Made by a program: the position numbers and the translations under genes
Part shown: one piece after another, positions 26,510-50,757 of the stretch
Numbering within the stretch: the stretch's first letter is position 1
Layout: every line of letters starts with the position of its first letter
Notes under the pieces: model-generated
The model's database searches: none
The model's input: only the letters and a program-made list of their open reading frames with translations
Told to the model about the DNA's origin: nothing
From: an uncultured delta proteobacterium
GTDB lineage: Bacteria > Desulfobacterota > Binatia > Binatales > Binataceae
Reading direction: 5' to 3'
DNA: 64,000 nt
Assembly (NCBI GenBank): GCA_963794325.1
Contig: CAWCDG010000004.1
Span: 1,703,972 to 1,767,971, forward strand

Positions 26510-26765
26510 GCCGCGCCGCAGCCATCCAGACGGATGCGACGTGGGGGAGTGGGGAAGGGGAAATCACTTTATCAAATGTGAAACCCGCGTACCGACGCGC
26601 GTCCGGTTCCCCTTCCCGCTCGGGAAGGGGTCAGGGGTTAGGTTCTTCGGCAGGGGTGACCCCTGCACCCAGTGATAAAGTGAAAAGTGAAAAGTGAGAA
26701 GCGCGAAATGTTGAGGACAACCGCTTCTGTTCCCCTTTCCCGCAGGAAAGGGGGAACAGAAGCCA
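26510..26765. repeat. Mosaic intergenic repeat block (several hairpin modules)
   Basis: Contains the modules CATCCAGACGGATGCGACGTGGGGGAGTGGGGAAGGGGAAATCACTTTATCAAATGTGAAACCC, GGTTCCCCTTCCCGCTCGGGAAGGGG, GGCAGGGGTGACCCCTGCACC and GTTCCCCTTTCCCGCAGGAAAGGGGGAAC. Each recurs elsewhere, for example at 32558-32730, 50668-50757, 53786-53845 and 56750-57100. Confidence 0.65.
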
Positions 26766-28295: not shown

Positions 28296-29066
28296 TTAAT
28301 TCTTGGCGGTCGGCCCCTGCTTTAGCAACTCCTGGATCTTGGCGTCGAATTGCTGGTAAGGCATCGCACCGACGATGCGGACCCCGTTGAGGTTGCCATT
28401 CTGTACGTGCCCCAAGACGAACGAAGGGGTTCCCGTAATGCCCGCAGCTGTCCCTTCGGCGATGTCTTTGTCGATCACTGCCTTGTACTTGTCCGAATCG
28501 ACACAGGCCTTGAACTTGGTGACATCGAGCGACGACTTCCCGGCGTCATCGAGTATTTTGTCGGCTTGTAGCTGGCCCGAATTGGCGAATATCGTCTGGC
28601 GCATTTCCCAATATTTTCCCTGCTCGGCGGCACACCGACCGGCAACCGCGGCGCGCCGCGCATTCTCGTGGAATTCGAGCGGGAAGTCGCGGCTCACGAA
28701 TCGGAGCTTGCCGGTGTCGATGTAGTTGGTCTTGATCTGCGCGAACGCGCCGCTCTGAAAGCGCTGGCAGAACGGGCACTGGTAGTCGGTGTATTCGACC
28801 AGGACCAGCGGCGCGTTATCGCTGCCGACCGATAATCCGCCAGCGGGAAATGCATAGCTCACTTTGCTGTCTACGGGGCCACCCGGCGCGGGCGCGGTCG
28901 GCACCAAGGGGCGCTGCTCGAGGTCTTTGCGAATCGCCTTGAGCTCCTCGATTATTTGCTGCGCCTGCTCCGACGTAATGCTGTCAGCGGCCGCAGGTAG
29001 CGCACAAAAAAACAGCGCCACTACCGCAGCGAGTCCAATTACGCGTCGCCAGGTCTCGTTCATCAT
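28296..29066 (-). CDS. DsbA-like thiol:disulfide oxidoreductase (thioredoxin fold), secreted
   Basis: Signal peptide. CPFC active site (DYQCPFCQRF) and a DsbA-like helical insertion. Confidence 0.85.
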   Translation of the reverse strand: MMNETWRRVIGLAAVVALFFCALPAAADSITSEQAQQIIEELKAIRKDLEQRPLVPTAPAPGGPVDSKVSYAFPAGGLSVGSDNAPLVLVEYTDYQCPFCQRFQSGAFAQIKTNYIDTGKLRFVSRDFPLEFHENARRAAVAGRCAAEQGKYWEMRQTIFANSGQLQADKILDDAGKSSLDVTKFKACVDSDKYKAVIDKDIAEGTAAGITGTPSFVLGHVQNGNLNGVRIVGAMPYQQFDAKIQELLKQGPTAKN

Positions 29067-29403: not shown

Positions 29404-32400
29404 ATGACTCGCATCGGAATCGTCGTGACTCGCTTGTTCGCGTTCACCTGCCTATTCTTCGCCGCGCTGTTGCTCATCACCGCTTGCACGGCGCTCGCAG
29501 AAAGCGACTGCAAGCCCGCGGCTCCGCTGCCGCAATCGAAGTGCAACAAGGATGCGCAATGTTGCACGGGCCTGGTTTGCGGGCCGGCTGGCAGTTCTCA
29601 AAATAATGCGACGACCCAATGCCAGCCAGGCTGCCGCATCGACGGCGTGTTCTATGCGAGCGGCGCCGTCAACGCCACACAGTGCCAGAGCTGCCAGCCC
29701 GCAGTGAGCACGAAGGCATGGAGTGATCTGGGCAACGGCACGAGCTGTAACGACCACAACGCCTGTACCCAGACCGACACATGCCAAGCTGGAGCGTGCG
29801 TCGGCAGCAAACCAATCGTCTGCACCGCCTCCGACCAGTGCCACACCGCCGGGACGTGTAATCCCAGTACGGGCGTGTGCTCGAACCCCGACAAGACCAA
29901 CGGCACGACCTGTAACGACGGCAACGCCTGCACCCAGACCGACACCTGCCAGAGCGGCACGTGCGCAGGCAGCAACCCGGTCGTCTGCACCGCCTCCGAC
30001 CAGTGCCACGTCGCGGGAACCTGTAACTCCAGCACGGGGGTGTGCTCGAACCCCAACAAGACCGACGGCACCGCTTGCAACGACAACAACGCCTGCACGA
30101 GCAACGACGTGTGCACCGGCGGCAGCTGCGCCGGTACCGCCGTCACCTGTACGGCATCTGACCAGTGCCACGGCGCGGGCACGTGCAATCCGCAGACCGG
30201 GTGCTCGAACCCGCCGCTAGCCAACGGCACAGCATGCAACGACGGCAACGCCTGCACGAGCAACGACGTCTGCACCGGCGGCAGCTGCGCCGGCGCCGCC
30301 GTCACCTGTACGGCATCTGACCAGTGCCACGGCGCGGGCACGTGCAATCCGCAGACCGGGTGCTCGAACCCGCCGCTAGCCAACGGCACGGCATGCAACG
30401 ACAACAACGCCTGCACGAGCAACGACGTGTGCACCGGCGGCAGCTGCGCCGGCACCGCCGTCACCTGTACGGCGTCTGACCAGTGCCACACGGCCGGGAC
30501 GTGTGACCCCAGCACCGGCGCGTGCTCGAACCCAGTGGCGGCCAGCGGCACGACCTGCGTCAACGCCAACGATTGCGTTTCGGGCACCGCCACCTGCAAC
30601 GGATCGGGACAGTGTATCGGGGGCACCAATGTCGCAAACGGCACTTCCTGCAATGGCGGTAACCTTTGTTTGACAGGCGGAAAGTGCTCGACGGGAACGT
30701 GCAGCGGCGGCACCCCTACGATTTGCTCCGGTCAAGACGCATGCCACACGGCTGCCACTTGTAATCCAGCTGATGGAACCTGTGCTGCCGCCACCCCGAT
30801 AGCAGATGGCCAGACCTGCAATAGCGTCGCTTGTCAGGTAGGCGGAACATGCACGGCCGGTGCGTGCAGCGGCGATAAGGCGGCGGCAGGGGGCAAGAAG
30901 GTCCTTTGTCGCCCGGCTGCAGTTGGGGCAGACGGCACGACCTGTGATGTTCCTGAATATTGCGATGGTACGAATGTAACCTGTCCGGCAGATGGTTACG
31001 TACCTGCGGGCACGCTTTGCCGAGCCATTGGGACTAATCCATCTTTTTCTACATACAATCTTTGTGACCAGGCAGAATATTGTACCGGGACGTCGAACGC
31101 TTGCCCGGCCGATACCGGCCTCGCGCTTGGTGTAGCGTGCGGAGGCGTGGGCTGCACTTCGACGGGATTTTGCCAAGGACGTTGCGGTGGAGTTAACGGG
31201 ATTGGTACCATTGCATGCAGCAGCGATAATGATTGCATGGGTCAGCCCGCAACCCGAACCCAATGTCTCCCGAGTACATTTGACCACGGCCTGCTGAAAT
31301 GTAGCGGCGGATTCAGCGAGCCCAACGGCCATACATGCACCGACAGCAATAGCGACGCTGGGACATGCGCAGATGGTCTTTGCAAAACGAGCTTTTGCAG
31401 CTACGACATCATGTGCCCTGATGGATACGTCTGTGACTCAAACCATGGTTGCGTCCTAGCTACTGCTGGTGGTTTGGGCGTCTCATGCACCGGTGACCCC
31501 ACCGGCGCCACCGTCTCCGGTACCTGCGGCTTTGATCCTGAGATCGGTACGAAAGACGACTGCTGCGCCGGGATGCAGGGAACCGGCCAAGGTGCCGCCG
31601 CAGGCCCTAACGTGTCTGGGCGCTGCGAGCAGTGCTGCAATAGCAGTACGTCAGTTAGTAGTGTTGTGAGTTGTGGTACTGACGATGTAACCCAGTGCTG
31701 TAACGGCAGATGCGCCGACACCGCCCACGACATCGACAACTGCGGCGGCTGTGCATATACCCCCCCCAGCCTCGGCGGCGGCACCAATTGCAATGAACTC
31801 CTCAGTGCTTGCTCCCCGAGTGCGACATGCAACCCGGATAATGGCGGCTGCATTTTGTCGGACGCTTGTGGCAGCACCACGGACGGGGGCCCGAATATTT
31901 GCCAAATCCCGACAGTGACGGTTACGAACTCCGCTTGTAGCGAATGCTACGCGACGAGCCTCACCGAGGTCGCAGCACTTGGAGTGACTTTTGGCAGGAA
32001 TTGTAGCACGGATGCTGATTGCCAGGGCGTTGCTGGGGCGTGCCGATTCTTCACGAGCTTCTGTGATGCAAACAGCGTGTCACCTGGCTTGGGCTGCTCC
32101 TCGAGCACTGGTTGCAGGAATGCGACTTTTAGCCAAGGTGCATGCAATGTCAATTTCACGTGCCTAACCACACTCGGGGTTACAACTTCTATCGCACCTG
32201 AGTGCACCACTTCGCCTTACACGTCCTGCGGGCTGATTTGTGCTACTGGAACTTTAAGCCAGGGGAACATCGGGACCCAATGTAGCGTAGATTCCGATTG
32301 CACCAGTGGACCGGACGGGTACCCCGGAGAGCGGTGTGAACTGACCAGCTGTCCAATTTCCCCTGGCGCGGCGCTGGCCACGTCCGGCGGCCCAGTGGCA

Positions 32401-32469
32401 GCTCAGTGCTTAATTAATGCCACCTACACCTGCCAGATACCTCTAGGAGGCGATCAATTCCAGCAGTGA
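29404..32469 (+). CDS. Secreted hyper-cysteine tandem-repeat protein (1021 aa; resembles myxobacterial-type Cys-rich repeat surface proteins)
   Basis: Signal peptide. At least six tandem 53-55-aa units of the form CNDxNACTxxDxCxxGxCxGxxxxCTASDQCHxAGTCNPxTGxCSNP. The rest is Cys/Gly/Thr-rich low-complexity sequence. There are far more than 100 cysteines in total. Confidence 0.8.
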   Translation: MTRIGIVVTRLFAFTCLFFAALLLITACTALAESDCKPAAPLPQSKCNKDAQCCTGLVCGPAGSSQNNATTQCQPGCRIDGVFYASGAVNATQCQSCQPAVSTKAWSDLGNGTSCNDHNACTQTDTCQAGACVGSKPIVCTASDQCHTAGTCNPSTGVCSNPDKTNGTTCNDGNACTQTDTCQSGTCAGSNPVVCTASDQCHVAGTCNSSTGVCSNPNKTDGTACNDNNACTSNDVCTGGSCAGTAVTCTASDQCHGAGTCNPQTGCSNPPLANGTACNDGNACTSNDVCTGGSCAGAAVTCTASDQCHGAGTCNPQTGCSNPPLANGTACNDNNACTSNDVCTGGSCAGTAVTCTASDQCHTAGTCDPSTGACSNPVAASGTTCVNANDCVSGTATCNGSGQCIGGTNVANGTSCNGGNLCLTGGKCSTGTCSGGTPTICSGQDACHTAATCNPADGTCAAATPIADGQTCNSVACQVGGTCTAGACSGDKAAAGGKKVLCRPAAVGADGTTCDVPEYCDGTNVTCPADGYVPAGTLCRAIGTNPSFSTYNLCDQAEYCTGTSNACPADTGLALGVACGGVGCTSTGFCQGRCGGVNGIGTIACSSDNDCMGQPATRTQCLPSTFDHGLLKCSGGFSEPNGHTCTDSNSDAGTCADGLCKTSFCSYDIMCPDGYVCDSNHGCVLATAGGLGVSCTGDPTGATVSGTCGFDPEIGTKDDCCAGMQGTGQGAAAGPNVSGRCEQCCNSSTSVSSVVSCGTDDVTQCCNGRCADTAHDIDNCGGCAYTPPSLGGGTNCNELLSACSPSATCNPDNGGCILSDACGSTTDGGPNICQIPTVTVTNSACSECYATSLTEVAALGVTFGRNCSTDADCQGVAGACRFFTSFCDANSVSPGLGCSSSTGCRNATFSQGACNVNFTCLTTLGVTTSIAPECTTSPYTSCGLICATGTLSQGNIGTQCSVDSDCTSGPDGYPGERCELTSCPISPGAALATSGGPVAAQCLINATYTCQIPLGGDQFQQ
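29745..30560 (+). repeat. Coding tandem DNA repeat (period ~159-165 bp, about 5 units) inside the Cys-rich gene
   Basis: Near-identical units starting gc(a/t)tgcaacgac at 30074, 30233 and 30392; more diverged units lie upstream. Confidence 0.7.
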
Positions 32470-32500
32470 GTGACTAATTCAGACAAGCGGTCGTGCATTA

Positions 32501-32545
32501 CCAGGTTGACTCTTACGCGACAAGAACGCGTAAGAGTCAACCTGG
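32501..32545 (+). terminator. Perfect 19-bp stem hairpin 32 nt downstream of the Cys-rich gene (no U-tract)
   Basis: ccaggttgactcttacgcg-acaagaa-cgcgtaagagtcaacctgg. Confidence 0.4.
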
Positions 32546-32557
32546 TGCTCGCCGCGA

Positions 32558-32730
32558 CGCCGCCATCCAGACGGATGCGACGTGGGGGAGTGGGGAAGGG
32601 GAAATCACTTTATCAAATGTGAAACCCGCGGTGGGTTTCACACTTCCTTCGGCAGGGGTGACCCCTGCAACCAGTATCCTACAACCGGTTCCCCTTCCCG
32701 CTCGGGAAGGGGTTAGGGGTTAGGTTCTTC
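32558..32730. repeat. Mosaic intergenic repeat block (direct-repeat partner of 26510-26650)
   Basis: Repeats about 75 bp of 26513-26590 almost exactly (CCATCCAGACGGATGCGACGTGGGGGAGTGGGGAAGGGGAAATCACTTTATCAAATGTGAAACCCGCG). It also carries the GGCAGGGGTGACCCCTGCA and GGTTCCCCTTCCCGCTCGGGAAGGGGTTAGGGGTTAGG modules. Confidence 0.65.
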
Positions 32731-32840
32731 GTGCGTGCGCGCGATTCCGAATACCTCGCCCGTTACTTTACGGGAGAGGCGGCCGGCGGGCGCAGCCGCC
32801 GGTAGGTGAGGGTTCCGGGCCACATCGCAAGAGCTGGCCT

Positions 32841-32945
32841 AATGACTTTTTGTGTCATTCTTGAGCGCTTCTGGATAACTCCGCTTTCACCAGCCGAAGC
32901 CCTGAGCCCAGCCGAGCGGGGAAGAATCCCGGATTCTTCTTTGCC
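32841..32945. repeat. Degenerate MITE-like hairpin (GTGTCATTCTTGAGCG variant) plus a gaagaatcccggattcttc palindrome
   Basis: aatgactttttgtgtcattcttgagcgcttctgg and the palindrome at 32920-32940. The GC content drops to the right of this point. Confidence 0.4.
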
Positions 32946-33199
32946 TCGCTCACTGAAGGGGAGCCGTCGCGACGCGCGTCCGCGTGCGGCGAGTGAGGGA
33001 CGTTTGCGCGGCGCGATTGTCTCGCGCGTCGCGATCAGATCCCAAGCTAAATACGAACGTTTGACGTGCGAGAAGTAAAATCAAGGCAAGCAGTTGCCTC
33101 GTCACAAAATCGCTGAGGTTTCAGTGGCCGAATGTTTCAGAACCGTACATCGCACGCGGGAAGGTTGCTCAGTGTATAATTCTGAACCCTAACGCGCCT

Positions 33200-33796
33200 A
33201 TGCCAAAGAAGAGAAATATACGGACGCAACGGCCAGACGATGCGTTTTCGATGGGGCCAATCTCGTTCGCTCGCTTCGGAAAAAATCTTGTCTGGAAGAG
33301 CGATTGGCCTGAAGGCGCCTTTAATGAAATGCAAGAGCAGCGAATCCAACACTATCCCAAAACCGTAGAGAAGATTGACAAGCTCATATCTGAGATCACA
33401 AGCCTCATCGGCGAGCTGCCGCCTGATAGGCTTCTACATCGAGCTTGGTGGGAAATGACCCATCTGCACAGGAAAGTTGCCAACGAAACCAGCGTCGCGT
33501 CAGACGAGAGCGCTTCGGTTCGAATGATCGACTACGTTCAAAGCGTTATCGCTGCTGCGCCGCGAGAGCATAGTCCACGAGAAGAGTTAACAGAAGAAGA
33601 GTGGGCAACGCTACGAGAAAAGGTCGACGAGCTTTTCCGAACGGTCTCCTTTGACTATCAATTCTGCCGTACCGCAAAGAACAAAGCCGAAGATCCGAAT
33701 TTCGACAAAGACTTCGAAGAATTCCGATTGCGGCTGAGATCTACTGGTGCAACGTCAGGGGTAAGAGATATCAGGTCCATGAAACCGCCTACCTGA
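33200..33796 (+). CDS. Hypothetical protein, fragment 1 of a probable single ~815-aa ORF; low-GC region
   Basis: No recognisable domain. The downstream frame is already open from 33655. Adding one base in the aaa run near 33781 fuses this ORF to the next. Confidence 0.4.
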   Translation: MPKKRNIRTQRPDDAFSMGPISFARFGKNLVWKSDWPEGAFNEMQEQRIQHYPKTVEKIDKLISEITSLIGELPPDRLLHRAWWEMTHLHRKVANETSVASDESASVRMIDYVQSVIAAAPREHSPREELTEEEWATLREKVDELFRTVSFDYQFCRTAKNKAEDPNFDKDFEEFRLRLRSTGATSGVRDIRSMKPPT

Positions 33797-33801
33797 AGGA
33801 T

Positions 33802-34608
33802 ATGTTCCTTCCACATTCTGACGTGTTGCAGGAACTATTTGGCATCTCTGGCGAGCAGTTCGTCGATGAGATTACTAAAATCTGGCATGTACTATCGTTT
33901 GGCATCAGCGATGCGGCCGAGTCATTCGGTCGATTTCAGGACGATGTAATGGACGCGCTCGACAGGAAGAGGATCGGCTTACCACCGCCGACTGAAGATG
34001 AAATGTTAGCCTTGACGTCTGAGGTCGTGAAGGAACACGGATGGGAAGATCGCCAAGATGACGTTTTAGGCCGCTTCTTTGGTATGGATCTTTTCGATCT
34101 TCAAAAAACCACAACACTCCCGCGTCGCTTACTGGACGAGTTATCTTGGTCGCCCGGAGAGGAAGTGGAATTCTTTGCAGAAGGTGCGTATAGCGGTTGG
34201 CCTCTTCGTGTCTGGCCGATCTTCAAGCGTCCTTTCATCCGATTGGACGGCCGATACTATTGTTTCGATCTCTATAGCCTTCTCGACAATCTTTACCGCG
34301 TCATGCAGCGCCTGATCCGAAATCTTAAGCCATCCTATGAGCAAACTTGGAACCGCATTCAGCAGAAAGCATCGGAAGACCTTCCTTTCAAATACTTAGA
34401 GACCTTGCTGCCAGGGGCAGATGTATGGAGGCAGGTTTACTATCGCGGTAAAACAGTCACGGGCGCCAGCGAATGGTGCGAGACTGACGGACTCCTCATT
34501 TATGATGACCACCTGTTCGTCATCGAGCGAGAGGTGGGGCCTTCACGTACACGCCTCCTGCGATCGATTTTCCTGCCTATGTTGCATCACTTAGGAACCT
34601 CGTCTTAA
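33802..34608 (+). CDS. Hypothetical protein, fragment 2 of the probable single ORF
   Basis: No recognisable domain. Contains the acidic segment DGLLIYDDHLFVIEREVG. A one-base change in the tttt run near 34567 would fuse it to the 34644 ORF. Confidence 0.4.
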   Translation: MFLPHSDVLQELFGISGEQFVDEITKIWHVLSFGISDAAESFGRFQDDVMDALDRKRIGLPPPTEDEMLALTSEVVKEHGWEDRQDDVLGRFFGMDLFDLQKTTTLPRRLLDELSWSPGEEVEFFAEGAYSGWPLRVWPIFKRPFIRLDGRYYCFDLYSLLDNLYRVMQRLIRNLKPSYEQTWNRIQQKASEDLPFKYLETLLPGADVWRQVYYRGKTVTGASEWCETDGLLIYDDHLFVIEREVGPSRTRLLRSIFLPMLHHLGTSS

Positions 34609-34643
34609 AGCCCGCAACGCAGGGCAAGCGATTCGTTGAGTAT

Positions 34644-34955
34644 TTGAAAAGTGCCGACGCGGTTCCTTTGTTCGACAGAGATCACAAGCAGGTCGGTGAG
34701 CTACGCAAGAAGAACTTTCGCCACATCACAATATGCCCGGTAACCCTCGACCCATTCACCGAAATAGCCGCTCAGGTACAACATCTCCGTAAGATTGGTG
34801 TCGACGTTGGTTCCGAGCCCATTTGGGTCGTATCTCTAGACGATCTCCGCGTGTACGCGGACATTTTCGAAAATCCCCTGCTTTTCCTGACACTACGTGG
34901 AGCAGAGAATGCAAGGTTTCCGGTCGAACGTTATCAGGTCCGACGACGAGCTTGA
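34644..34955 (+). CDS. Hypothetical protein, fragment 3 of the probable single ORF
   Basis: TTG start. Its frame is open from 34509. It overlaps the next ORF by 59 nt in another frame; a one-base change at the ttt run near 34916 would fuse them. Confidence 0.35.
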   Translation: MKSADAVPLFDRDHKQVGELRKKNFRHITICPVTLDPFTEIAAQVQHLRKIGVDVGSEPIWVVSLDDLRVYADIFENPLLFLTLRGAENARFPVERYQVRRRA

Positions 34956-35652
34956 TCATCTGGGCCTCTACCTAAAGCACAACCATTTCACTACCTATGC
35001 TCAGGAAATTCACGGTGACTCCGATGCCAGAATCAGGTTCGTCGGATACCGGGCGAGTATCGACAAATTTTTTAGTGAGCGCATGCTTGACCCAACCACA
35101 CCCTGCCCTTTAAAGCAGGAAATCCCACCACGCATTCTGGAGATTGTCGAGTTCCTATCGCGCAGCAACAAACCGGGCCGCGCGGAAATCGCTGCCTTTC
35201 TGCTGGATATTGACGCCGTAAGGCGTACGCCGGTCGCGAGGAACATCGATGAGGAATTGTTGAGGCAGCCCACCACTAAGCGACCGATGCCATTCTCGAT
35301 GCATGCTGGCGTGAATCTGACAGTCTTCTGCTGGACCAACGCTTGGGCCCAGAGACGAGCTCCCCTTGCGCTTTACCACACGCGGACAGTGTTCCTGATC
35401 CACGAAGAGTCGCGTCGCCTTTTGCTTGAACTAAGTTACACAGACTCCGGCGTTCTCAAAGACATCGACTGGAATTGGGTAGACTCAGCCAGCATACCTT
35501 CGCATGAGTTGCCAAGCTTGCGCGCCAACGCAGACGGGTTGCGTCGCGAAAGGATCACCAAGGCGAAGGGCGCAAAGGGGAAAATCGAAAGAAACGATCC
35601 GTGTCCTTGCGGCAGCGGCAGGAAGTACAAGCGATGCTGCCTGGGGCGATAG
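34897..35652 (+). CDS. Hypothetical protein with C-terminal SEC-C zinc-binding motif, fragment 4 of the probable single ORF
   Basis: GTG start. The C-terminus DPCPCGSGRKYKRCCLGR matches the SecA C-terminal (SEC-C) metal-binding motif. Nothing else is recognisable. Confidence 0.45.
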   Translation: MEQRMQGFRSNVIRSDDELDHLGLYLKHNHFTTYAQEIHGDSDARIRFVGYRASIDKFFSERMLDPTTPCPLKQEIPPRILEIVEFLSRSNKPGRAEIAAFLLDIDAVRRTPVARNIDEELLRQPTTKRPMPFSMHAGVNLTVFCWTNAWAQRRAPLALYHTRTVFLIHEESRRLLLELSYTDSGVLKDIDWNWVDSASIPSHELPSLRANADGLRRERITKAKGAKGKIERNDPCPCGSGRKYKRCCLGR

Positions 35653-35699
35653 CAAGCCAATGAAAGGGATAGAGTTCTCTCGTTGCTCTCTCTGCGCGA

Positions 35700-35966
35700 T
35701 ATGCATCGCATCAAGCAATCCTGCTTTAGTTGTCCCTCACCCGCGCCGGAGGCGCGGCCTCTCCCCACGAACGGGCGAGGCTAAGAACCCAGGGTCCCTC
35801 TGCGGAGCCTGCCCTGAGCGAAGTCGAAGGGGTCGGGATGACACAAGGACTCAGGAGTGGCTGCGCAGGATCCGGATGCGCACCTTGAATCGCGCGCGAA
35901 AAAAATCGCGCGCTGAACAAGGTCCCTCTCCTTAAATCCTCTCCCGTCGGGAGAGGGGAAGATAAG
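35700..35966. repeat. Cluster of short hairpin repeats (CTCTCCCGN6CGGGAGAGG..ATAAG family and a GTGTCATCCCGACCCCTTCGACTTCGCTCAGG variant)
   Basis: ctctcccgtcgggagaggggaagataag at 35937-35966 recurs at 47264-47300. The interval 35812-35845 is a variant of the MITE-like family. Confidence 0.45.
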
Positions 35967-36016
35967 AAAAACACATCGCCTGCTCAGTTTCGGTATCAAC
36001 GCCAAGCCGGAAAACT

Positions 36017-36044
36017 ATTCGTGTTTCGTTCTCCTGAACTTTAT
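36017..36044. repeat. 28-bp direct repeat (left copy) flanking the IS1595-family transposon-like unit
   Basis: attcgtgtttcgttctcctgaactttat is identical to 38828-38855. Confidence 0.7.
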
Positions 36045-36224
36045 GGGGATTAGTAGTTTGTTGACACCATTCCTGCTAATCTGGCGTCGGCGTGACAGGC
36101 CGACGACAACCGTTGACATTCGCACCTGCTATATTCGCTGTCTGATCGCCTTGCGTTTTTAAGTGCGGTCTATAACCAAGGACGTTCTCCGCTTCGTCGG
36201 AGTTCGTGTTATAAGGTCAGCGTC

Positions 36225-37070
36225 ATGGCAAGATTGCGGTTTCGGTTTGAATTGAGGCGGGACGCCAAGGGCGTCCAATTGCAGAAGCTCGCCAAGATCG
36301 CCGAGGAGACGCAACGTTTCTTGCGAATGATGGCGAAGGACGTAGAGAACGACCGGCTTCAGGAAGATTGGGTTGCCGTTAATTTCTTGGACCACTCGAT
36401 CGGTTACGACTTAGAATTCATCGGTGACGCCGACGAAGACGAAGCACGAATCTTCCGCCGCGCTGTTCTCCATGTTGCAAATTGGACTACGAACGGTCAC
36501 TCGCGCGAGGGTGTGCAAGGTGTTCGGAAGGAAACGCTTCTCCAATTCGCAAAGATCGCAGAGCCGCTCGAATCTACAGAGAAAATAGATTGGGGGTTTT
36601 TTAACGGAACCGATCCCGATCTTCCTACCGACGCTCCCTTGGACTGGCGTTCCTTAACTAAGAGCCAGGCTCTCGCTGTCTCTGAGCGATTGAGCCAAAT
36701 AATTGAATACCGAGGAATGATTCAGGGAATCATTCACTCTCTGTACAAAGAATCGTCGCCTCCGTACTTCGACGCTAGGCAGTTATCTACTCAAGATATA
36801 GTTAAGTGCTTGTATAAACAGGAAGACTACAGACTTGTAGTTAACTTGTTGCAACGGCGGGACGCCGTAGTAATAGTCTCTGGACTCATTAAGGCACGTC
36901 GCCTAGATCGCAAAATCACAGAGATTCGTATCGAACGAATGCGTTCCACAGAACCATTGTCCGATGCGGAGTTTGCGAAGTTGCAGGGCGCTGCACCGGA
37001 GTTGACAGGACGACTAAGCACTGACGATTTCATTGAGCGCCAGCGCCGTAGAGACAATGGCGACGAATAA
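36225..37070 (+). CDS. Hypothetical protein (281 aa), transposon cargo gene 1
   Basis: ATG at 36225. No recognisable domain or HTH. It overlaps the downstream PIN gene by 14 nt, so the two are probably co-transcribed. Confidence 0.45.
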   Translation: MARLRFRFELRRDAKGVQLQKLAKIAEETQRFLRMMAKDVENDRLQEDWVAVNFLDHSIGYDLEFIGDADEDEARIFRRAVLHVANWTTNGHSREGVQGVRKETLLQFAKIAEPLESTEKIDWGFFNGTDPDLPTDAPLDWRSLTKSQALAVSERLSQIIEYRGMIQGIIHSLYKESSPPYFDARQLSTQDIVKCLYKQEDYRLVVNLLQRRDAVVIVSGLIKARRLDRKITEIRIERMRSTEPLSDAEFAKLQGAAPELTGRLSTDDFIERQRRRDNGDE

Positions 37071-37629
37071 ACAACAAGCGTACATGGATTCTTGCTGCTT
37101 TATCGAATACGTAAAGCACAAGGTGGGCATTCCATTAAGTACCGAGCGCGACAACGAAGCTTGGTATATTGGCCAATTGCTACAAGCATCGGCTGACCGA
37201 GACATTGAAATATACACTTCTACGTTAACCGTCGCCGAATGCACTCACGCTGAAGGCGATATAAGTGATGAAGTTCAGGATTGGTTTATTCGGCTTCTAA
37301 CGTCGGGGAAGCACGTAATATTAGTAGAGCCAGATATTTTCGTCGCAGAACTCGCTAGAGACCTACGATGGAGACATAACATTCGCCTAGGGGGTGCGGA
37401 TGGCTTGCACGTCGCTTCAGGTATCGATAGGGCTTGCGTCGAATTCTTGACGTTGGAAGGCGAGAAAAAGAATAACGCGATTCTCAGAAACAAGGGTGAG
37501 ATCGTAAAGCTGGGCATGACTCCTCGGCATCCCTCCGATACAACCTGTCTTAGCGAGGAGTACCGACAACAGGTCGTGCCTGGTGTGCCTCCAGCGCCAC
37601 GAAAAAGGAAGATGGGAAAGAAGAAGTAA
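37057..37629 (+). CDS. PIN-domain (VapC-like) putative ribonuclease, transposon cargo gene 2
   Basis: Acidic residues sit in PIN-like positions: AYMDSCCFIEY (Asp 1), STLTVAEC (Glu) and GGADGLHVASGIDRAC (Asp 3 and 4). The C-terminal tail is basic. The start could be ATG 37057 or 37084. Confidence 0.5.
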   Translation: MATNKQQAYMDSCCFIEYVKHKVGIPLSTERDNEAWYIGQLLQASADRDIEIYTSTLTVAECTHAEGDISDEVQDWFIRLLTSGKHVILVEPDIFVAELARDLRWRHNIRLGGADGLHVASGIDRACVEFLTLEGEKKNNAILRNKGEIVKLGMTPRHPSDTTCLSEEYRQQVVPGVPPAPRKRKMGKKK

Positions 37630-37838
37630 GGCGCTATCTAGCGCTTCTGCTTTTGCGCCTTATCGATTTTTTCTTTCGGGACGTTCACCAGGTGCCGCAT
37701 CATCCGGTCGAATTCTGACATGTCCGCGTTTTTCAGTGCTTCGCGGAGTTCTTTTGTCTTCGCGCGGATTGACGGGGAATCTGAAGTCGCCTTGGGCACG
37801 TCGCCACTTTAGCGAATTCACAGGCACGCGGCTACGGA

Positions 37839-38774
37839 CTAGACGTTTGATATGAGTTCAGCAAACGGATCGTCGTCGTGACGCCGATTGTGCCGATACG
37901 TGAACTCCGACAGATAAAGCGGTAAGTAGTCTTTCGATACTTTATGATAGCTGCCCATGATGCCGCGCCGGAGCAACGACCAGAACGATTCAATCGTCTG
38001 CGTATGCACACGACCGCGCACGTACTCATCGTTCTTGTGCGTAACGAAATCGTGCTTGAAGCCCATCCGATCCAGATTCCGGTAACGGAAGCTCTCATCA
38101 GTCGCGATCAGATCGACCTTACTCGAAACCGTCTTTTTGACGAAATCATCATACGTTCGGAAATCGGCATCTTCGACCATCTGGCAGACTACGTTGCCTT
38201 TGCGGGCAATGGCTCCGATGACTTCGGTCTTTCCGACAGGGCCGCGCCGATTGGCGCGTTGGCTCTTGTGCTTGTTGCGCTCCAAGCCGCCAAGGTAAAC
38301 CTCATCGATCTCGACCACGCCCATCAGTTGTTCCCACTGCGAATCTTTCATCGCGGCGCGCAGTCTCATGCACTGATACCAAGTCGTGTGATAGTTGTTC
38401 AGGTGCTTCGAGCCGTACATCATCCGGTGAAGCTGGAGCGCACTGATTCCCTTCTTCGACGTGAGCATCAAGTATCCGATTTTGAACCACGATTTGAGCG
38501 GGCGTTTCGTGTTCTCAAAAATCGTGTGCGTGATCACGCTGAACCTGTAGCCGTTCTGCTTGCCGCACGTGAGCACTTCGCCAGTCTCTTTGTTGACCGA
38601 CTCTTTGCCGCTCTTGCAGACCCAATTGAATGGACGCGCCTTGAGTTCGTAAACCTTTTCGTTCCCGCATCGCGGACAGGTAACCTTGCCATCCGGCCAG
38701 CGCATATCCTTGACGTACTGGCGACAAGCTTCTTCGGTCGGGAACCGTTGATCGAAAGCATCTAGCGTTTGCAT
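37839..38774 (-). CDS. IS1595-family transposase (ISXO2-like DDE transposase with N-terminal zinc ribbon)
   Basis: N-terminal CPRCGN...C zinc ribbon and a DDE_Tnp_IS1595 core (VEIDEVYLGG ... IATDESFRY ... HTQTIESFWSLLRRGIMGSYHKVSKDYLPLYLSEFTYRHNRR). Confidence 0.9.
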   Translation of the reverse strand: MQTLDAFDQRFPTEEACRQYVKDMRWPDGKVTCPRCGNEKVYELKARPFNWVCKSGKESVNKETGEVLTCGKQNGYRFSVITHTIFENTKRPLKSWFKIGYLMLTSKKGISALQLHRMMYGSKHLNNYHTTWYQCMRLRAAMKDSQWEQLMGVVEIDEVYLGGLERNKHKSQRANRRGPVGKTEVIGAIARKGNVVCQMVEDADFRTYDDFVKKTVSSKVDLIATDESFRYRNLDRMGFKHDFVTHKNDEYVRGRVHTQTIESFWSLLRRGIMGSYHKVSKDYLPLYLSEFTYRHNRRHDDDPFAELISNV

Positions 38775-38827
38775 ACTGATCAGAATAGCGGATTAGCGAG
38801 TCGGTGTCAACAGCCTACTAATCCCCG

Positions 38828-38855
38828 ATTCGTGTTTCGTTCTCCTGAACTTTAT
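38828..38855. repeat. 28-bp direct repeat (right copy) flanking the transposon-like unit
   Basis: attcgtgtttcgttctcctgaactttat is identical to 36017-36044. Confidence 0.7.
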
Positions 38856-38858
38856 TGC

Positions 38859-38886
38859 CAAAAACGTTTCACGTGAAACGTTTTTG
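38859..38886. repeat. Perfect 28-bp palindrome CAAAAACGTTTCACGTGAAACGTTTTTG
   Basis: Self-complementary with a CACGTG core. A second copy of the 24-bp core lies 135 bp away. Confidence 0.7.
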
Positions 38887-38995
38887 CACAAAAAGCGAAC
38901 AAAATCAGGCGCTTGTGAAATCTGAAACCCGGGAATCGCACCAATTTAATGTGACGATCGGTCGGCGCCGATCAACTCGATGTTATCGGCGTCCG

Positions 38996-39019
38996 AAAAC
39001 GTTTCACGTGAAACGTTTT
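38996..39019. repeat. Second copy of the perfect palindrome AAAACGTTTCACGTGAAACGTTTT
   Basis: Identical 24-bp core, 20 nt downstream of the oppC stop. Confidence 0.7.
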
Positions 39020-39038: not shown

Positions 39039-40122
39039 TCAGGTGGCGTTAGCGGGGTCCAGGCGGTCTCTTAGGTGGTCGCCCAGGAAGTTAAACGACA
39101 TTACGGCCAGGAAGATGAAGATTCCCGGGATTAAGATCCAGGGGTAGCGGGCCAGGTTTTGGACGTCCTGGGCTTGGGCCAGGAGGTTGCCCCAGCTGGC
39201 GGCGGGTTCCTGGATGCCGAGGCCCAACAGCGACAGGGCGCTTTCGCCTAAGATGAAGCCGGGGATTGAGAGGGTGGCGGCGACGATTGCGTAGCCCATC
39301 ACCGACGGGATGATGTGGCGGGTGATGATGCGCCATCGCGAGGCGCCGAGCGCGCGGGCTGCTTCGACGTACGGCCGCGAGCGCACCGAGGACGCCATCC
39401 CGCGGATGATTCGCGCGAAGCCGGCCCAACTGATGAAGCTCATGATCGCGACGATCATGAAAAACGTCGCGACCGCGCCAAGTCCCGACGGAATCACCGC
39501 CGCGAGCGCCAGTAAAAAATAGAATGACGGCAGCGACATCTCGATTTCGGACCATCGCATGATCAGGAAATCGACTGTGCCGCCGATGTATCCCGACAGC
39601 GCGCCGACCGTGATGCCCAGTGAAAAAGTGATCAGCACGCCGATCAGCCCGACGCACATGCTCACGCGCGAGCCGTAAACGATTCGCGACCAAAGGTCGC
39701 GGCCCAAGGCCGTCGCTGCCGAGCATGAAGTACGGCACGCGCTCGCTGTCAGTGGTGAACAGGTGCCAGTGCGAGAACAGGTGGATGTCGAGCCGCTGCG
39801 AATTGTCGGCGGCGAAGGTGCGCGCACTGCTGTCCTGCATATGCATCGGATGCGTATAGAAAATACTGCGCGACCATTCGGACGGCGCGCTCAGGTGAAG
39901 CGACATCGGCGGACAATCGGGCATCTCGCGATTCTGATACGCGGGATCGTAGCTCGCGAAGAACGGCGACGCAGCGGCGAGCAGGTAGAATACGGCGAGG
40001 CAGATTGCGGAAAAGCGCACCGTCCGCGACGCGAGACGCCACTCGCGCGCGATGCTCAATGTTCTCGGCGCGGATACCTCAGCGCCTTGTAGATTTGCCT
40101 GCAATGCGGGAACGGCGTTCAT
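39039..40122 (-). pseudogene. Oligopeptide/dipeptide ABC transporter permease (OppC/DppC-like) with a single-base frameshift near 39700
   Basis: The N-terminal part is in ORF 39091..40122 and the C-terminal part in ORF 39039..39827. The conserved GSDGLGRDLWSRIVYGSRVS motif is split by one extra base in a gggcc run. This may be a real pseudogene or a homopolymer sequencing indel. Confidence 0.7.
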
Positions 40123-40123
40123 A

Positions 40124-41104
40124 TCATTCGGCCGCCACCGACGAAAAATCGACGCGCGGATCGACCGCGACCAGCGCGATGTCGGCGAGCAGGTTGCCGA
40201 CCAGCAGCAGGATCGTGCCCATCAGCACCGATCCCATGACCAGGTAGATGTCGAGCGAGCGGACCGCGTCGAGCATCAAGAGCCCGAGCCCCTGCAGGTT
40301 CATCACGGCCTCGACCAGGGCGGCGCCGCCGAGCAGGTCGCCCAGCGAGTATCCCGCCATCGTGACGAACGGGTTCATCGCGTTGCGCAGCACGTGCTTG
40401 TAGATCACGACGCGCTCGGAAAGTCCCTTGGCGCGCGCGGTGCGCACGAATTCGGAATTTTTAATTTCGAGAATCTGCGATCGCATCAGGCGCATCAGTC
40501 CGGCGGTTCCCGAAATGCCCAGCACCAACACGGGCAGTATGAGATGGTTGATGCGATCGGCGACCTGGTTCAGCGGAGAGAGCGTCGCATAGTCGGGCGA
40601 GTAAGTGCCGCCGATTGGAAACCATCCGGTCTCCAGCGCGAAGTACATCGTGAGGAAGGCGAGAAAGAAACTCGGCACCGACATCCCGAAGAACGCGAGG
40701 AAGGACAGAAAGCGATCCCAGATCGAGTTCTGATTCACCGCGACGATAATTCCGATCGGTATCGCGATCAGCCACGATAAAAGCATGCTGCTCGCCGCCA
40801 GGATGATCGTGTTGAAGGCGCGCGACGCGATAAGGCCGGTGACGCTCACCCGGTACTGCAGCGAGAAGCCGAAATTGAGATGCAGCACGCCCCACAGCCA
40901 CTTGAAGTATCGGACCATCAGGGGCTGGTCGAGCCCGAACTGCGCTTCGAGCTGATGAATCACTTCGGGCGTCATAGTCGGGTTGAGCTTGAGATTGGAG
41001 ACGAAGTCGCCCGGCACCATCGACATCGCAAGAAACGAAATGAAGGTGATCCCGAGAATCAGCGGGATCATATTGAGCAGGCGACGGATCAGGAAGCGGG
41101 TCAT
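40124..41104 (-). CDS. Oligopeptide/dipeptide ABC transporter permease (OppB/DppB-like)
   Basis: MTRFLIRRLLNMIPLILGITFISF N-terminus. Typical 6-TM permease with the EAA-like region TARAKGLSERVVIYKHVLRNA. Confidence 0.9.
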   Translation of the reverse strand: MTRFLIRRLLNMIPLILGITFISFLAMSMVPGDFVSNLKLNPTMTPEVIHQLEAQFGLDQPLMVRYFKWLWGVLHLNFGFSLQYRVSVTGLIASRAFNTIILAASSMLLSWLIAIPIGIIVAVNQNSIWDRFLSFLAFFGMSVPSFFLAFLTMYFALETGWFPIGGTYSPDYATLSPLNQVADRINHLILPVLVLGISGTAGLMRLMRSQILEIKNSEFVRTARAKGLSERVVIYKHVLRNAMNPFVTMAGYSLGDLLGGAALVEAVMNLQGLGLLMLDAVRSLDIYLVMGSVLMGTILLLVGNLLADIALVAVDPRVDFSSVAAE

Positions 41105-41158
41105 CGTGTCATCGGGGTGTCGGGCCTGATATTTCGACGTGGGTGATGCGCGGGATGT

Positions 41159-47147: not shown

Positions 47148-47235
47148 AGCTTTTCACCCCTGATGACATAGAGACTATGCACGCGCCGCAGCACCCTCAC
47201 CTACCGGCCGCGATGCGGCCGGCCTCCTCTCCCGT

Positions 47236-47300
47236 AAAGCTCCCCTCACCCGCGCCAAGGGCGCGACCTCTCCCGCAACTCAGCGGGAGAGGCGAATAAG
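47236..47300. repeat. Hairpin repeat (CCCCTCACCCGCGCC..GGCGCG and CTCTCCCGCAACTCAGCGGGAGAGG modules)
   Basis: Shares modules with 35740-35966. Confidence 0.4.
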
Positions 47301-47349
47301 ATGTCGCGTGGAACGCAACATCCTAACTGGGGCGAGGTATTTCGGAGCG

Positions 47350-50654: not shown

Positions 50655-50667
50655 GGAGAGGAACGTA

Positions 50668-50757
50668 ATTGAATGTGAAACCCTCCGCGGGTTTCACGCT
50701 TCCGCGGCAGGGGTGACCCCTGCACCCGGTGCTAATCGCGAAATGTTGAGGACAACC
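50668..50757. repeat. Mosaic hairpin repeat (ATGTGAAACCCTCCGCGGGTTTCAC + GGCAGGGGTGACCCCTGCACC + GCGAAATGTTGAGGACAACC modules)
   Basis: Near-identical module copies at 53786-53845, 56775-56845, 32616-32680 and 26644-26720. Confidence 0.65.

What the first reader, a model, noticed from the sequence alone, without database searches (positions are those of the whole stretch)
33200..35652. Four adjacent low-GC ORFs probably form one ~815-aa gene of unknown family ending in a SecA-type SEC-C zinc motif
The ORFs 33200..33796, 33802..34608, 34644..34955 and 34897..35652 are on the same strand with gaps or overlaps of only -59 to +35 nt. At each junction the next frame is already open upstream. One-base changes inside short homopolymers (aaa near 33781, tttt near 34567, ttt near 34916) fuse them into a single ORF. 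The fused product ends in DPCPCGSGRKYKRCCLGR, the SEC-C metal-binding motif. The rest has no family I can recognise. It includes an acidic DGLLIYDDHLFVIEREVG segment that could be a degenerate nuclease-like core. Its position in a low-GC block next to a transposon in an accessory island makes it a candidate defence or effector gene. It may be pseudogenised, or it may simply be mis-called because of indels.
Basis: inference. Interest (0 to 1): 0.65.

Follow-up and report, generated by a model that had tools for sequence, protein, structure and literature searches.

The report
Frameshifted nuclease gene with SecA-like tail
The four small reading frames are the wreck of one 817-residue gene, broken by three single-base indels. 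It belongs to a widespread but unstudied family of stand-alone nucleases carrying a SecA-type zinc tail, which turn up in phage-defence islands, plasmids and prophages.

Summary
ORFs 33200..33796, 33802..34608, 34644..34955 and 34897..35652 are pieces of one gene. More than 100 intact homologues of about 815 aa cover 100% of the fused product (50-88% identity).

DNA alignment to the closest intact homologue shows exactly three 1-nt indels: a deletion at about 33728, a deletion at about 34527 and an inserted A at 34890. All three recur in two other public assemblies, so they are probably real mutations. They are recent: dN/dS is 0.13, and all 70 invariant family residues are retained.

The family has 822 clusters at 50% identity and occurs in more than 12 phyla. 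Only its SEC-C tail matches any curated model. An AlphaFold model (pLDDT 88) shows:
- a helical N-domain;
- a PD-(D/E)xK, NERD-like nuclease core with invariant D430, E443-x-K/R445 and Q475;
- an alpha/beta C-domain;
- the zinc knuckle.

The second frameshift cuts the ExK motif.

There is no conserved partner gene. Neighbours are often restriction-modification (R-M), Abi, TIR or toxin-antitoxin (TA) genes, or prophage cargo.

Best reading: a dead copy of an uncharacterised single-gene defence nuclease. The defence role is inferred, not shown.

The parts
32921..33199 (+). Conserved non-coding leader upstream of the gene. It travels with the gene in other genomes.
   Evidence: It aligns with L001 226-530 as part of one 86%-identity block covering 32921..35787. 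The alignment contains frequent 1-3-nt indels, so the region is not coding. Contig L095 from another assembly begins at window position 32922. Neither a convincing sigma-70 promoter nor an Rfam match was found.
33200..33729 (+). Gene segment 1, residues 1-177 of the repaired protein: a small N-terminal beta-sheet and the start of the helical domain.
   Evidence: ORF 33200..33796. Homology to intact proteins continues in this frame only up to FEEFR.
33727..33730 (+). Frameshift 1: a 1-nt deletion. The window has CGA-TTG-CGG where intact relatives have CGG TTT GCA (..FEEFR F AAEIYW..).
   Evidence: DNA alignment with L001 and L004. The same deletion is present in L094 and L095.
33730..34527 (+). 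Gene segment 2, residues 178-443: the rest of the helical N-domain and the first half of the nuclease core, including E428, D430 and E443.
   Evidence: Frame of ORF 33802..34608, open from 33655. Alignment to homologues.
34216..34832 (+). PD-(D/E)xK (NERD-like) nuclease domain, residues about 340-545. Catalytic-type residues are D430 (34486-34488), E443 (34525-34527), R445 (34530-34532) and Q475 (34620-34622).
   Evidence: - The AF2 model has alpha-beta-beta-beta-alpha-beta topology at residues 378-533.
- D430, E443 and Q475 are invariant and position 445 is K or R.
- Foldseek hits go to PD-(D/E)xK nucleases.
- Pfam NERD matches the same region in relatives.
34526..34528 (+). Frameshift 2: a 1-nt deletion (GA-GCG versus GAG GCC) inside the E-x-K/R catalytic motif.
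   Evidence: It is shared by L094 and L095. It produces the spurious 'VIEREVG' reading.
34528..34889 (+). Gene segment 3, residues 444-564: the second half of the nuclease domain.
   Evidence: Frame of ORF 34644..34955, open from 34509. Homologues read ...RGGAFTYTPPA...ENPLLFL.
34890..34890 (+). Frameshift 3: an inserted A (CTG-A-CAC TAC). It is not in a homopolymer.
   Evidence: It is shared by L094 and L095.
34891..35652 (+). Gene segment 4, residues 565-817 plus the stop codon: the C-terminal alpha/beta domain and the SEC-C tail.
   Evidence: ORF 34897..35652. Homologues read LHYVEQRMQ....
35590..35643 (+). SEC-C (SecA-type) Cys-rich metal-binding motif, DPCPCGSGRKYKRCCLGR.
   Evidence: Pfam PF02810, E=1.4e-9. 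PDB sequence hits go to the SecA zinc-binding domain and the YchJ C-terminus. The Cys, Gly and Lys positions are nearly invariant in the family.
35653..36044 (+). Conserved downstream non-coding region, interrupted at 36044/36045 by the IS1595 element.
   Evidence: Patches match the downstream regions of L001 and L004. L004 has the uninterrupted site.
36017..38855 (.). IS1595-type element. It is not part of the gene; it marks the locus as a mobile-DNA hotspot.
- Terminal inverted repeats: 36045-36068 and 38803-38826.
- 28-nt target-site duplication: 36017-36044 and 38828-38855.
- Two cargo ORFs and the transposase.

Best explanation
**What it is.** Window 33200..35652 is a recently inactivated copy of a single 817-codon gene.

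**Predicted architecture of the ancestral protein**
1. A short N-terminal beta-sheet plus a large helical domain (residues about 1-340).
2. A PD-(D/E)xK restriction-endonuclease-like core of the NERD type (about 340-545), with an E-x-D ... E-x-(K/R) ... Q active-site signature.
3. An alpha/beta C-terminal domain (about 545-795).
4. A SecA-type SEC-C zinc/iron knuckle.

**How it most likely works (inferred).**
- The protein works alone as a Mg2+-dependent nuclease. Its helical and C-terminal domains probably keep the active site shut until an invader-derived cue is bound. It then cuts nucleic acid, giving anti-phage or anti-mobile-element immunity or abortive infection. This is the logic of other single-protein PD-(D/E)xK defence nucleases such as Upx and Shedu.
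- The SEC-C knuckle probably serves as a small docking module for a protein partner or the ribosome.

**State of this copy.**
- Three fixed 1-nt indels break the reading frame.
- The second indel splits the E-x-K/R motif, so no fragment can be an active nuclease.
- The gene arrived as foreign, low-GC DNA. It sits beside an IS1595 insertion, in 12.6 kb of DNA that separates the permease and ATPase genes of an opp-type operon.

**Shown:** one gene; the three indels; family size and distribution; the fold and motif; the lack of a partner gene.
**Inferred:** nuclease activity; the defence role; the role of SEC-C.
For: **One gene**
- More than 100 intact full-length homologues.
- Exactly three 1-nt indels relative to L001.

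**The indels are real and recent**
- The same three indels occur in the Logan contig L094 (run ERR11718638), which is identical over the CDS.
- They also occur in the ENA contig L095 (ERZ25039590), which differs at 23 CDS positions.
- dN/dS against L001 is 0.13 overall and 0.08-0.24 in each of the four segments.
- The repaired protein keeps 70 of 70 invariant and 155 of 158 near-invariant family residues.
- The other window ORFs with Pfam matches (25 of the 30 scanned) have full-length domain coverage, so indels are not a general feature of the assembly.

**Nuclease**
- AF2 model with pLDDT 88 and pTM 0.85.
- Invariant D430, E443 and Q475, with K or R at 445.
- Foldseek top hits are Upx 9wuf (prob 0.97), Shedu SduA, AF1548, the R2 endonuclease, HamA, Cas4, Can2 and lambda exonuclease.
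- Pfam NERD scores above its gathering threshold in the Lactococcus homologue. It scores E=0.025 on the D..ExK region of the Photobacterium homologue.

**Stand-alone, mobile and defence-associated**
- No neighbour family recurs in more than 7 of 82 loci.
- Immediate neighbours include type I, IIG and ISP restriction-modification genes, MADS, DISARM, PARIS, Mokosh and type IV restriction enzymes.
- Individual loci sit next to ApeA, TIR and type I R-M genes, type I R-M and recombinases, Lit and AbiE plus MNT-HEPN.
- Seven IMG/VR loci lie inside genuine prophages, beside XamI, Eco57I, Schlafen and Fic cargo.
- The family is patchily present in more than 12 phyla and on plasmids.
- 76 of 79 untruncated copies are intact, so the gene is normally under selection.
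Against: - No member of the family has been tested, and no paper was found on it.
- All structural matches are weak. No Foldseek E-value is at or below 1e-3, and TM-scores are about 0.2.
- The PADLOC models for Upx, Shedu and other systems do not match.
- The defence-island association is only semi-quantitative. Many loci, including L004, sit among housekeeping genes. I could not compute a formal enrichment.
- Sequence conservation inside the nearest clade is high (mean column identity 63%), which is unusual for fast-evolving immune sensors.
- I could not establish the sequencing platform of the supporting assemblies. A context-dependent basecalling error shared by all three is therefore not formally excluded.
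Confidence: 0.62

Rival explanations
1. The gene is intact and functional in the organism. The three frameshifts are sequencing or assembly errors, for example systematic long-read basecalling errors.
For: - All four indels in the region, including the one in the OppC-like gene, involve a single base. Three of them change the length of a 1-3-base run.
- Apart from the indels the gene looks perfectly healthy: dN/dS is 0.13 and no invariant residue is lost.
- Related contigs come from assemblies whose contig names suggest long reads. L095 is visibly noisy, with 43 gap openings in 5.9 kb.
Against: - The three indels are identical in three separately assembled sequences, one of which differs at 23 CDS positions.
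- One indel is an A inserted outside any homopolymer. The other two are in runs of only 2-3 bases.
- No other frameshift showed up among the other 30 window ORFs scanned with Pfam: the 25 with matches have full-length domain coverage.
- Three indels in 2.45 kb, against none detected in more than 25 kb of other coding sequence, is not what a uniform error process gives.
Confidence: 0.15
2. The family is a nuclease, but not an immune protein. It would serve the mobile elements that carry it, or DNA repair or recombination. Possible roles are plasmid or prophage maintenance, exclusion of competing elements, or processing of DNA ends.
For: - It is found on plasmids and in prophages.
- It lies beside RecA, a Y-family polymerase, recombinases and Rpn nucleases in some plasmids.
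- Its conservation is stronger than is usual for immune sensors.
- Some copies sit alone among housekeeping genes.
Against: - It has no conserved association with any replication, partition, integration or repair gene.
- No terminal repeats or target duplications bound the gene cassette.
- The recurrent neighbours are R-M, Abi, TIR and toxin-antitoxin modules.
Confidence: 0.2
3. The protein belongs to the SecA/YecA secretion-chaperone world, as the database names 'YecA family' and 'SEC-C domain protein' suggest. On this view it is not a nuclease.
For: - Some sources name it 'YecA family protein'.
- The tail is almost identical to the SecA metal-binding domain. That domain binds SecB and ribosomes (bioRxiv 10.1101/613315).
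Against: - The similarity to YecA, YchJ and SecA is confined to the last 20-35 residues. NCBIfam scores are 25-41 bits against cut-offs of 140-158.
- The remaining 790 residues or so have a different fold with a nuclease core.
- The same tail occurs on unrelated defence proteins in PADLOC: E2, E1-E2 and PDC-S12.
Confidence: 0.03
4. The four ORFs are separate genes, or one gene expressed by programmed ribosomal frameshifting.
For: The ORFs each have a possible start codon.
Against: - Intact relatives encode the whole protein in one frame.
- The fragments cut through folded domains and through the active-site motif.
- Two -1 deletions and one +1 insertion would need three different recoding events. 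No slippery sites are present, and no relative has them.
Confidence: 0.01

Closest known systems
Upx (Gao et al. 2020 single-gene system; cryo-EM 9wuf; PMC13099982, PMC13601566)
   Same: - It is a single large polypeptide that works without a partner gene.
- It has a PD-(D/E)xK nuclease effector joined to large helical or sensor regions.
- It is the best Foldseek match of the full-length model (E=5e-3, prob 0.97, 600 aligned columns).
- The Upx N-terminal domain uses a D-x-R variant of the motif. This family tolerates R in place of K.
   Different: - Identity is 13% and the TM-score about 0.2.
- The PADLOC Upx model does not match.
- Upx has about 1270 residues, with its canonical core at the extreme C-terminus and a second atypical core at the N-terminus.
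- Here there are 817 residues, one central core, an extra C-terminal domain and a SEC-C knuckle that Upx lacks.
- Whether this family senses terminase, as Upx does, is unknown.
Shedu SduA (8ps4/8ps5) and other defence PD-(D/E)xK nucleases (HamA, Cas4, Can2)
   Same: The restriction-endonuclease-like core. These are the top Foldseek hits for residues 336-817 (E=4e-3 to 0.7).
   Different: - There is no sequence-level match to the Shedu or Hachiman models.
- The flanking domains differ.
- Hachiman, Cas4 and Can2 work with partners or signals encoded nearby. This family has none.
NERD, nuclease-related domain (Pfam PF08378)
   Same: - The D...ExK region of divergent family members matches the NERD profile. 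The Lactococcus homologue scores 24.1 bits against a cut-off of 22.1. The Photobacterium homologue scores E=0.025 at residues 420-482.
- NCBI names the Lactococcus fragment 'NERD domain-containing protein'.
   Different: - The window protein and its close relatives do not reach the NERD threshold.
- NERD describes only about 110 of the 817 residues.
SecA C-terminal metal-binding domain, and YecA and YchJ (SEC-C, PF02810)
   Same: The last 20 residues or so (GRNDPCPCGSGRKYKRCC) are a textbook SEC-C motif. In SecA this domain binds metal, SecB and ribosomes (10.1101/613315).
   Different: Nothing else is shared. The family is not a YecA or YchJ equivalog.
Rugutis (lactococcal plasmid anti-phage protein with a SEC-C motif; PMC11381338)
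   Same: It is a single-gene anti-phage candidate that carries a SEC-C motif and otherwise has an unmatched fold.
   Different: It has 359 aa, the motif is at the N-terminus, and no nuclease core is reported. I did not detect homology.

Membership tests
PD-(D/E)xK (restriction endonuclease-like) superfamily | alpha-beta-beta-beta-alpha-beta core fold | tested here: met
   In the AF2 model the core elements are H378-403, E408-418, E424-435, E438-445, H458-484 and E489-492. Foldseek hits are dominated by PD-(D/E)xK nucleases, each of them weak.
PD-(D/E)xK (restriction endonuclease-like) superfamily | Acidic residue on beta2 and a (D/E)-x-K motif on beta3 | tested here: met
   D430 and E443 are invariant. 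Position 445 is R in 42 and K in 21 of 63 sequences. E428 and Q475 are also invariant. In the window copy the motif is split by frameshift 2.
PD-(D/E)xK (restriction endonuclease-like) superfamily | Metal-dependent nuclease activity | not testable with these tools
   This needs biochemistry on an intact homologue.
NERD (Pfam PF08378) | Profile match at or above the gathering score (22.1 bits) | tested here: inconclusive
   - There is no hit for the window fragments, P0004, P0044 or P0078.
- The Lactococcus homologue (30% identical) scores 24.1 bits.
- The Photobacterium and Exiguobacterium homologues score E=0.025 and E=0.12.
SEC-C motif (Pfam PF02810) | Profile match above 20.4 bits with the Cys-x-Cys ... 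Cys-Cys/His ligands | tested here: met
   The match scores 38.1 bits and the motif is CPCGSGRKYKRCC.
YecA / YchJ (NCBIfam PRK10396, PRK01617, PRK02250 and others) | Whole-protein match above the curated cut-off (140-158 bits) | tested here: not met
   Scores are 25-41 bits and the matches are confined to the last 20-80 residues.
Upx defence system | Sequence-profile match to the Upx model | tested here: not met
   There is no PADLOC Upx hit, even at E<=10.
Upx defence system | Architecture: about 1270 aa, N-terminal sensor with an atypical nuclease, middle domain, canonical core at the extreme C-terminus (PMC13099982) | tested here: not met
   This protein has 817 aa, a single central core, and another 270 residues plus SEC-C after it. 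The fold resemblance is weak (TM 0.22).
Shedu (SduA) | Sequence-profile match to the SduA/DUF4263 models | tested here: not met
   There are no PADLOC or Pfam hits. There is only a weak fold match of the core.
Anti-phage defence system (generic) | Preferential location in defence islands or mobile-element cargo regions | tested here: inconclusive
   Many neighbours are R-M, MADS, DISARM, PARIS, Mokosh, TIR, ApeA, Lit or AbiE genes, or prophage cargo. Other loci are housekeeping. No formal enrichment statistic could be computed.
Anti-phage defence system (generic) | Experimental protection against phage | not testable with these tools
   I found no published test.
Transposon or insertion sequence encoding its own nuclease | Terminal inverted repeats and target-site duplication bounding the gene cassette | tested here: not met
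   Only REP-like host repeats flank the cassette. The neighbouring IS1595 element has its own ends and its own duplication.

The most novel reading that the evidence does not exclude
The family is a new type of single-protein immune nuclease. Its SecA-like metal-binding knuckle would tether it to the ribosome or to SecB. The nuclease would then be licensed by events at the translation or secretion machinery, such as nascent phage proteins or a phage-induced block of Sec targeting, rather than by direct recognition of DNA. The same SEC-C tail on unrelated defence proteins (E2 and E1-E2 of ubiquitin-like systems, PDC-S12, Rugutis) would mark a shared docking strategy.
Probability: 0.1. Interest if true: 0.75.

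Novelty: new variant of a known kind. Interest (0 to 1): 0.45.

Why it matters
The window copy is dead, so it is only a marker of gene loss in a mobile-DNA hotspot. It does, however, point to a large and well-conserved protein family that no curated library describes beyond a 19-residue tail:
- 822 clusters at 50% identity;
- present in more than 12 phyla, on plasmids and in prophages;
- a confident structural model with a clear nuclease active site.

If intact members protect against phages, this adds a stand-alone nuclease system to the defence catalogue. It would also give a handle on why SecA-type zinc knuckles recur on immune proteins. The repeated independent inactivation also hints that the gene is costly to keep. 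Examples are this copy, an IS30-split copy in Lactococcus, and three truncated copies among the species representatives.

Tried and rejected
- **Curated libraries.** Pfam, NCBIfam, PADLOC and PDB-sequence searches were run on the fragments, on intact homologues and on the 63-sequence profile. Only the SEC-C tail matched.
- **Phage records.** tblastn found no match in 50,697 records. BFVD gave only weak nuclease-core hits.
- **Conserved partner gene.** All-against-all clustering of 1285 neighbour ORFs from 83 loci (82 of them with a family ORF) found none.
- **The gene cassette as a transposon.** Rejected: it has no terminal inverted repeats or target duplication, only REP-like host repeats that match in both orientations.
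- **Regulatory signals.** Promoter, terminator and Rfam scans of the locus found nothing above background.
- **Literature.** Searches for SEC-C with nuclease, defence or NERD found no description of the family.
- **GC3-based frameshift scan.** My scan of the window was too coarse to call frameshifts. I replaced it with Pfam domain-coverage checks.
- **Programmed frameshifting and four separate genes.** Rejected on homology.
Full report
**1. The observation**

Their frames (start mod 3) are 2, 1, 0 and 1, and they are separated by +5, +35 and -59 nt. At each junction the following frame is already open upstream. The last ORF ends in a Pfam SEC-C motif (PF02810, E=1.4e-9). The region lies in a 6-kb block of GC 0.50-0.52 within a sequence of GC about 0.60. 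It is next to an IS1595 transposase.

**2. One gene, three indels**

A provisional 815-aa fusion retrieved 716 homologues. More than 100 are intact proteins of 797-838 aa covering 97-100% of the query at 50-88% identity.

The closest homologue, P0001 (88% identity), is encoded on contig L001. The window aligns to L001 at 86% nucleotide identity from 32921 to 35787. Inside the coding sequence the alignment has exactly three gaps:
- one base missing at 33727-33730 (CGA-TTG against CGGTTTG);
- one base missing at 34526-34528 (GA-GCG against GAGGCC);
- one extra A at 34890 (CTG-A-CAC).

Repairing these gives an 817-codon ORF with no internal stop. Its proposed sites (33781, 34567, 34916) are each 26-54 nt away from the real ones.

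**3. Real mutation or artefact?**

*The indels recur in other assemblies.*
- The fragment proteins are present in the public protein collection.
- A Logan contig from run ERR11718638 (L094) is identical to the window over the whole CDS, including the three indels.
- An ENA contig from assembly ERZ25039590 (L095) spans window 32922-38826. It differs at 23 CDS positions, has five further insertions and two stop codons, and also carries all three indels.

*The rest of the window looks clean.*
- I scanned 31 other window ORFs with Pfam. Of the 26 with a match, all but one show full-length domain coverage. Examples are Ffh, TrmD, RimM, ExbB/ExbD and the ABC components.
- The single exception is the OppC-like permease at 39039..40122(-), just beyond the IS element. 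It has one extra C near 39700.

*Reading.* Indels are therefore concentrated in 33.7-39.7 kb rather than spread through the assembly. I read them as real, fixed mutations with about 0.8 probability. The caveat is that I could not learn the sequencing platform.

*They are recent.*
- dN/dS against L001 is 0.13 overall and 0.08-0.24 in each of the four segments.
- The repaired protein keeps all 70 invariant and 155 of 158 near-invariant residues of a 63-sequence family alignment.

**4. The family**

- A profile search of 1.84 billion representatives found 822 clusters at E<=1e-30, nearly all about 800-820 aa.
- Among GTDB species representatives, 123 loci were confirmed. They come from Nitrospirota, Latescibacterota, Desulfobacterota-type lineages, Alpha-, Beta- and Gammaproteobacteria, Verrucomicrobiota, Planctomycetota, Chloroflexota, Acidobacteriota, Bacteroidota, Spirochaetota, Caldisericota and Actinomycetota. 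This patchy spread is typical of horizontally moving accessory genes.
- Copies also occur on plasmids of Photobacterium, Aliarcobacter, Bradyrhizobium, Rhizobium, Exiguobacterium and Lactococcus.
- Pfam, NCBIfam, PADLOC and PDB sequences recognise nothing but the SEC-C tail.
- I found no paper on the family.

**5. Structure and active site**

AlphaFold2 with the family alignment gave a confident model of P0004 (pLDDT 88, pTM 0.85). It has four parts:
- a three-stranded N-terminal sheet and a long helical domain (to about residue 340);
- an alpha-beta-beta-beta-alpha-beta unit (378-533);
- a mixed alpha/beta C-terminal domain;
- the SEC-C knuckle.

In the central unit E428, D430, E443 and Q475 are invariant, and residue 445 is R (42 of 63) or K (21 of 63). 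This is the PD-(D/E)xK signature.

Foldseek against the PDB gave the following.
- The full model matched Upx best (9wuf; E=5e-3, prob 0.97, 600 columns, 13% identity). Next came AF1548, Nt.BspD6I, Can2, VC1899, CdiA-CT, lambda exonuclease and MGME1.
- A second model of residues 336-817 (pLDDT 81.5) matched Shedu SduA, AF1548, the R2 endonuclease, HamA, Cas4 and Can2.
- Every match is weak, but they agree on the superfamily.

Independently, Pfam NERD (nuclease-related domain) passes its threshold on the corresponding region of the 30%-identical Lactococcus homologue. It gives sub-threshold hits on the D..ExK region of the Photobacterium and Exiguobacterium homologues.

The 'REVG' part is created by frameshift 2, which falls between E443 and R445. 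None of the four fragments can be a working nuclease.

**6. Genomic company**

*No conserved partner.* Clustering 1285 neighbour ORFs from 83 loci (82 of them with a family ORF) found no partner. The commonest neighbour family, a 510-aa protein in loci with type I R-M genes, occurs in 7 loci.

*Chromosomal neighbours.*
- The 149 immediate neighbours include type I, IIG and ISP R-M genes, MADS, DISARM, PbeA, PARIS, Mokosh, type IV restriction enzymes, NERD proteins, integrases and IS transposases.
- One locus has ApeA, two TIR proteins and a type I R-M system within 10 kb.
- In Anaeromyxobacter sp. K the gene sits beside a type I R-M system and recombinases.
- Another locus has type ISP fragments, HicB and transposases.

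*Plasmid neighbours.*
- Aliarcobacter: Lit.
- Bradyrhizobium: AbiE and MNT-HEPN.
- Lactococcus: AbiE.

*Prophages.* Seven IMG/VR loci place the gene inside bona fide prophages. These carry terminase, capsid, P2 GpU/Ogr, sheath and integrase genes, beside XamI, Eco57I, Schlafen and Fic cargo.

*Counter-examples.* Some copies sit alone among housekeeping genes.

*State of the copies.* 76 of 79 copies not cut by a contig end are intact. Disrupted copies recur: L026, L073, L075, the IS30-split Lactococcus gene and this window.

**7. Mechanism**

I propose that the protein is a self-contained, signal-gated PD-(D/E)xK nuclease. This is the logic experimentally shown for Upx, whose nuclease is essential for defence and is triggered by phage proteins (PMC13099982, PMC13601566).

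The SEC-C knuckle is almost identical to the SecA metal-binding domain, which binds metal, SecB and ribosomes (bioRxiv 10.1101/613315). The same tail occurs on unrelated PADLOC defence proteins: E2, E1-E2 and PDC-S12. This suggests a reusable docking module.

All of this is inference. Nuclease activity, substrate, trigger and phenotype are untested.

**8. Local history**

- The gene and its conserved non-coding flanks occur in different contexts in L001 and in L004. L004 comes from a related host that shares the window's REP-like repeats.
- In the window, an IS1595 element with two cargo ORFs inserted 390 nt downstream of the gene. Comparison with the empty site in L004 shows a genuine 28-nt target duplication.
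- The low-GC block and three other genes separate the permease genes of an opp-type operon from its ATPase genes, 12.6 kb away. The OppC-like gene is itself frameshifted.
- The picture is an accessory-DNA hotspot in which several genes are decaying.

**9. Verdict**

- The object in the window is a recent pseudogene.
- Its interest lies in the family it reveals, an uncharacterised, widespread, stand-alone NERD-type nuclease with a SecA-like tail. This is probably a new variant of the single-protein nuclease defence systems.

My confidence in each step:
- one gene: 0.97;
- real frameshifts: 0.8;
- nuclease fold: 0.85;
- defence role: about 0.55.

Noticed in passing
window 36017-38855: An IS1595-type element has 24-nt terminal inverted repeats (36045-36068 and 38803-38826) and a perfect 28-nt target-site duplication (36017-36044 and 38828-38855). 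The duplication was verified against the single-copy empty site in L004. As far as I recall, 28 nt is far longer than the roughly 8 bp usual for this family. The element carries two cargo ORFs: 36225..37070 (281 aa, no family) and 37033..37629 (198 aa, weak PIN, E=0.002). The cargo may be a toxin-like module.
   Followed up: partly
window 39039-40122 (- strand), junction near 39700: The OppC-like permease is frameshifted by one extra C (ggg-c-cgc-gac). The OppC_N domain is in one frame and BPD_transp_1 (profile positions 1-181 of 184) is in another. It is the only other broken gene I detected among the 31 other window ORFs I scanned.
   Followed up: partly
window 24524-26489 and 39039-42907 (- strand): An opp/dpp-type ABC operon appears split. 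The binding protein and two permeases lie at 39-43 kb and the two ATPases at 24.5-26.5 kb. About 12.6 kb lies between them: an unknown gene, a DsbA-like gene, a Cys-rich giant protein, the nuclease pseudogene and the IS1595 element.
   Followed up: no
window 38858-38884 and 38993-39019: There are two copies of a near-perfect palindrome, AAAACGTTTCACGTGAAACGTTTT, with a CACGTG core. The same palindrome lies downstream of the homologous gene in L004. It could be an operator or a terminator belonging to the gene cassette.
   Followed up: no
window 26645-26677, 32616-32815, 47186-47328, 50666-50734, 53780-53880, 56775-56849: A dispersed REP-like intergenic repeat family is shared with the genome of L004, a MAG labelled 'uncultured delta proteobacterium' (MFD05580.bin.2.15). 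This suggests the window's host is a related lineage. Pieces of it flank the nuclease cassette in both orientations.
   Followed up: partly
window 29404-32469 (+) and 28296-29066 (-): A 1021-aa, extremely Cys-rich repeat protein has a signal-peptide-like N-terminus (repeats of ...CNDGNACTQTDTCQ.G.C.G...) and a weak Disintegrin hit (E=4e-5). It lies next to a DsbA-like thioredoxin. A perfect 20-nt hairpin at 32500-32546 follows it.
   Followed up: no
window 832-4404 (+): A 1190-aa protein combines a double zinc ribbon, an adenylate/guanylate cyclase domain, an AAA_16 (STAND-type) ATPase and TPR repeats.
   Followed up: no
L095 (ENA ERZ25039590 contig_93633), equivalent to window 32922-38826: A 5.9-kb contig from another assembly covers exactly the nuclease cassette plus the IS1595 element. 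It stops at the IS end and at the left REP boundary. It shares the three indels but has many extra indels, two stop codons, and a split cargo ORF (118 + 111 aa). This is either further decay or low-coverage noise.
   Followed up: partly
L089 (Lactococcus plasmid pUCCL637D) 5358-8718; L026, L073, L075: Other family members are independently inactivated. An IS30 sits inside the Lactococcus gene, and there are N-terminally truncated or frameshifted copies in three GTDB genomes. This hints at recurrent loss of a costly gene.
   Followed up: partly
L008 9164-10000: In one locus a DUF5131 (phage Gp37/Gp68-like) gene ends one base before the start of the nuclease gene. A second DUF5131 fragment lies upstream. 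This was not seen in other loci.
   Followed up: no
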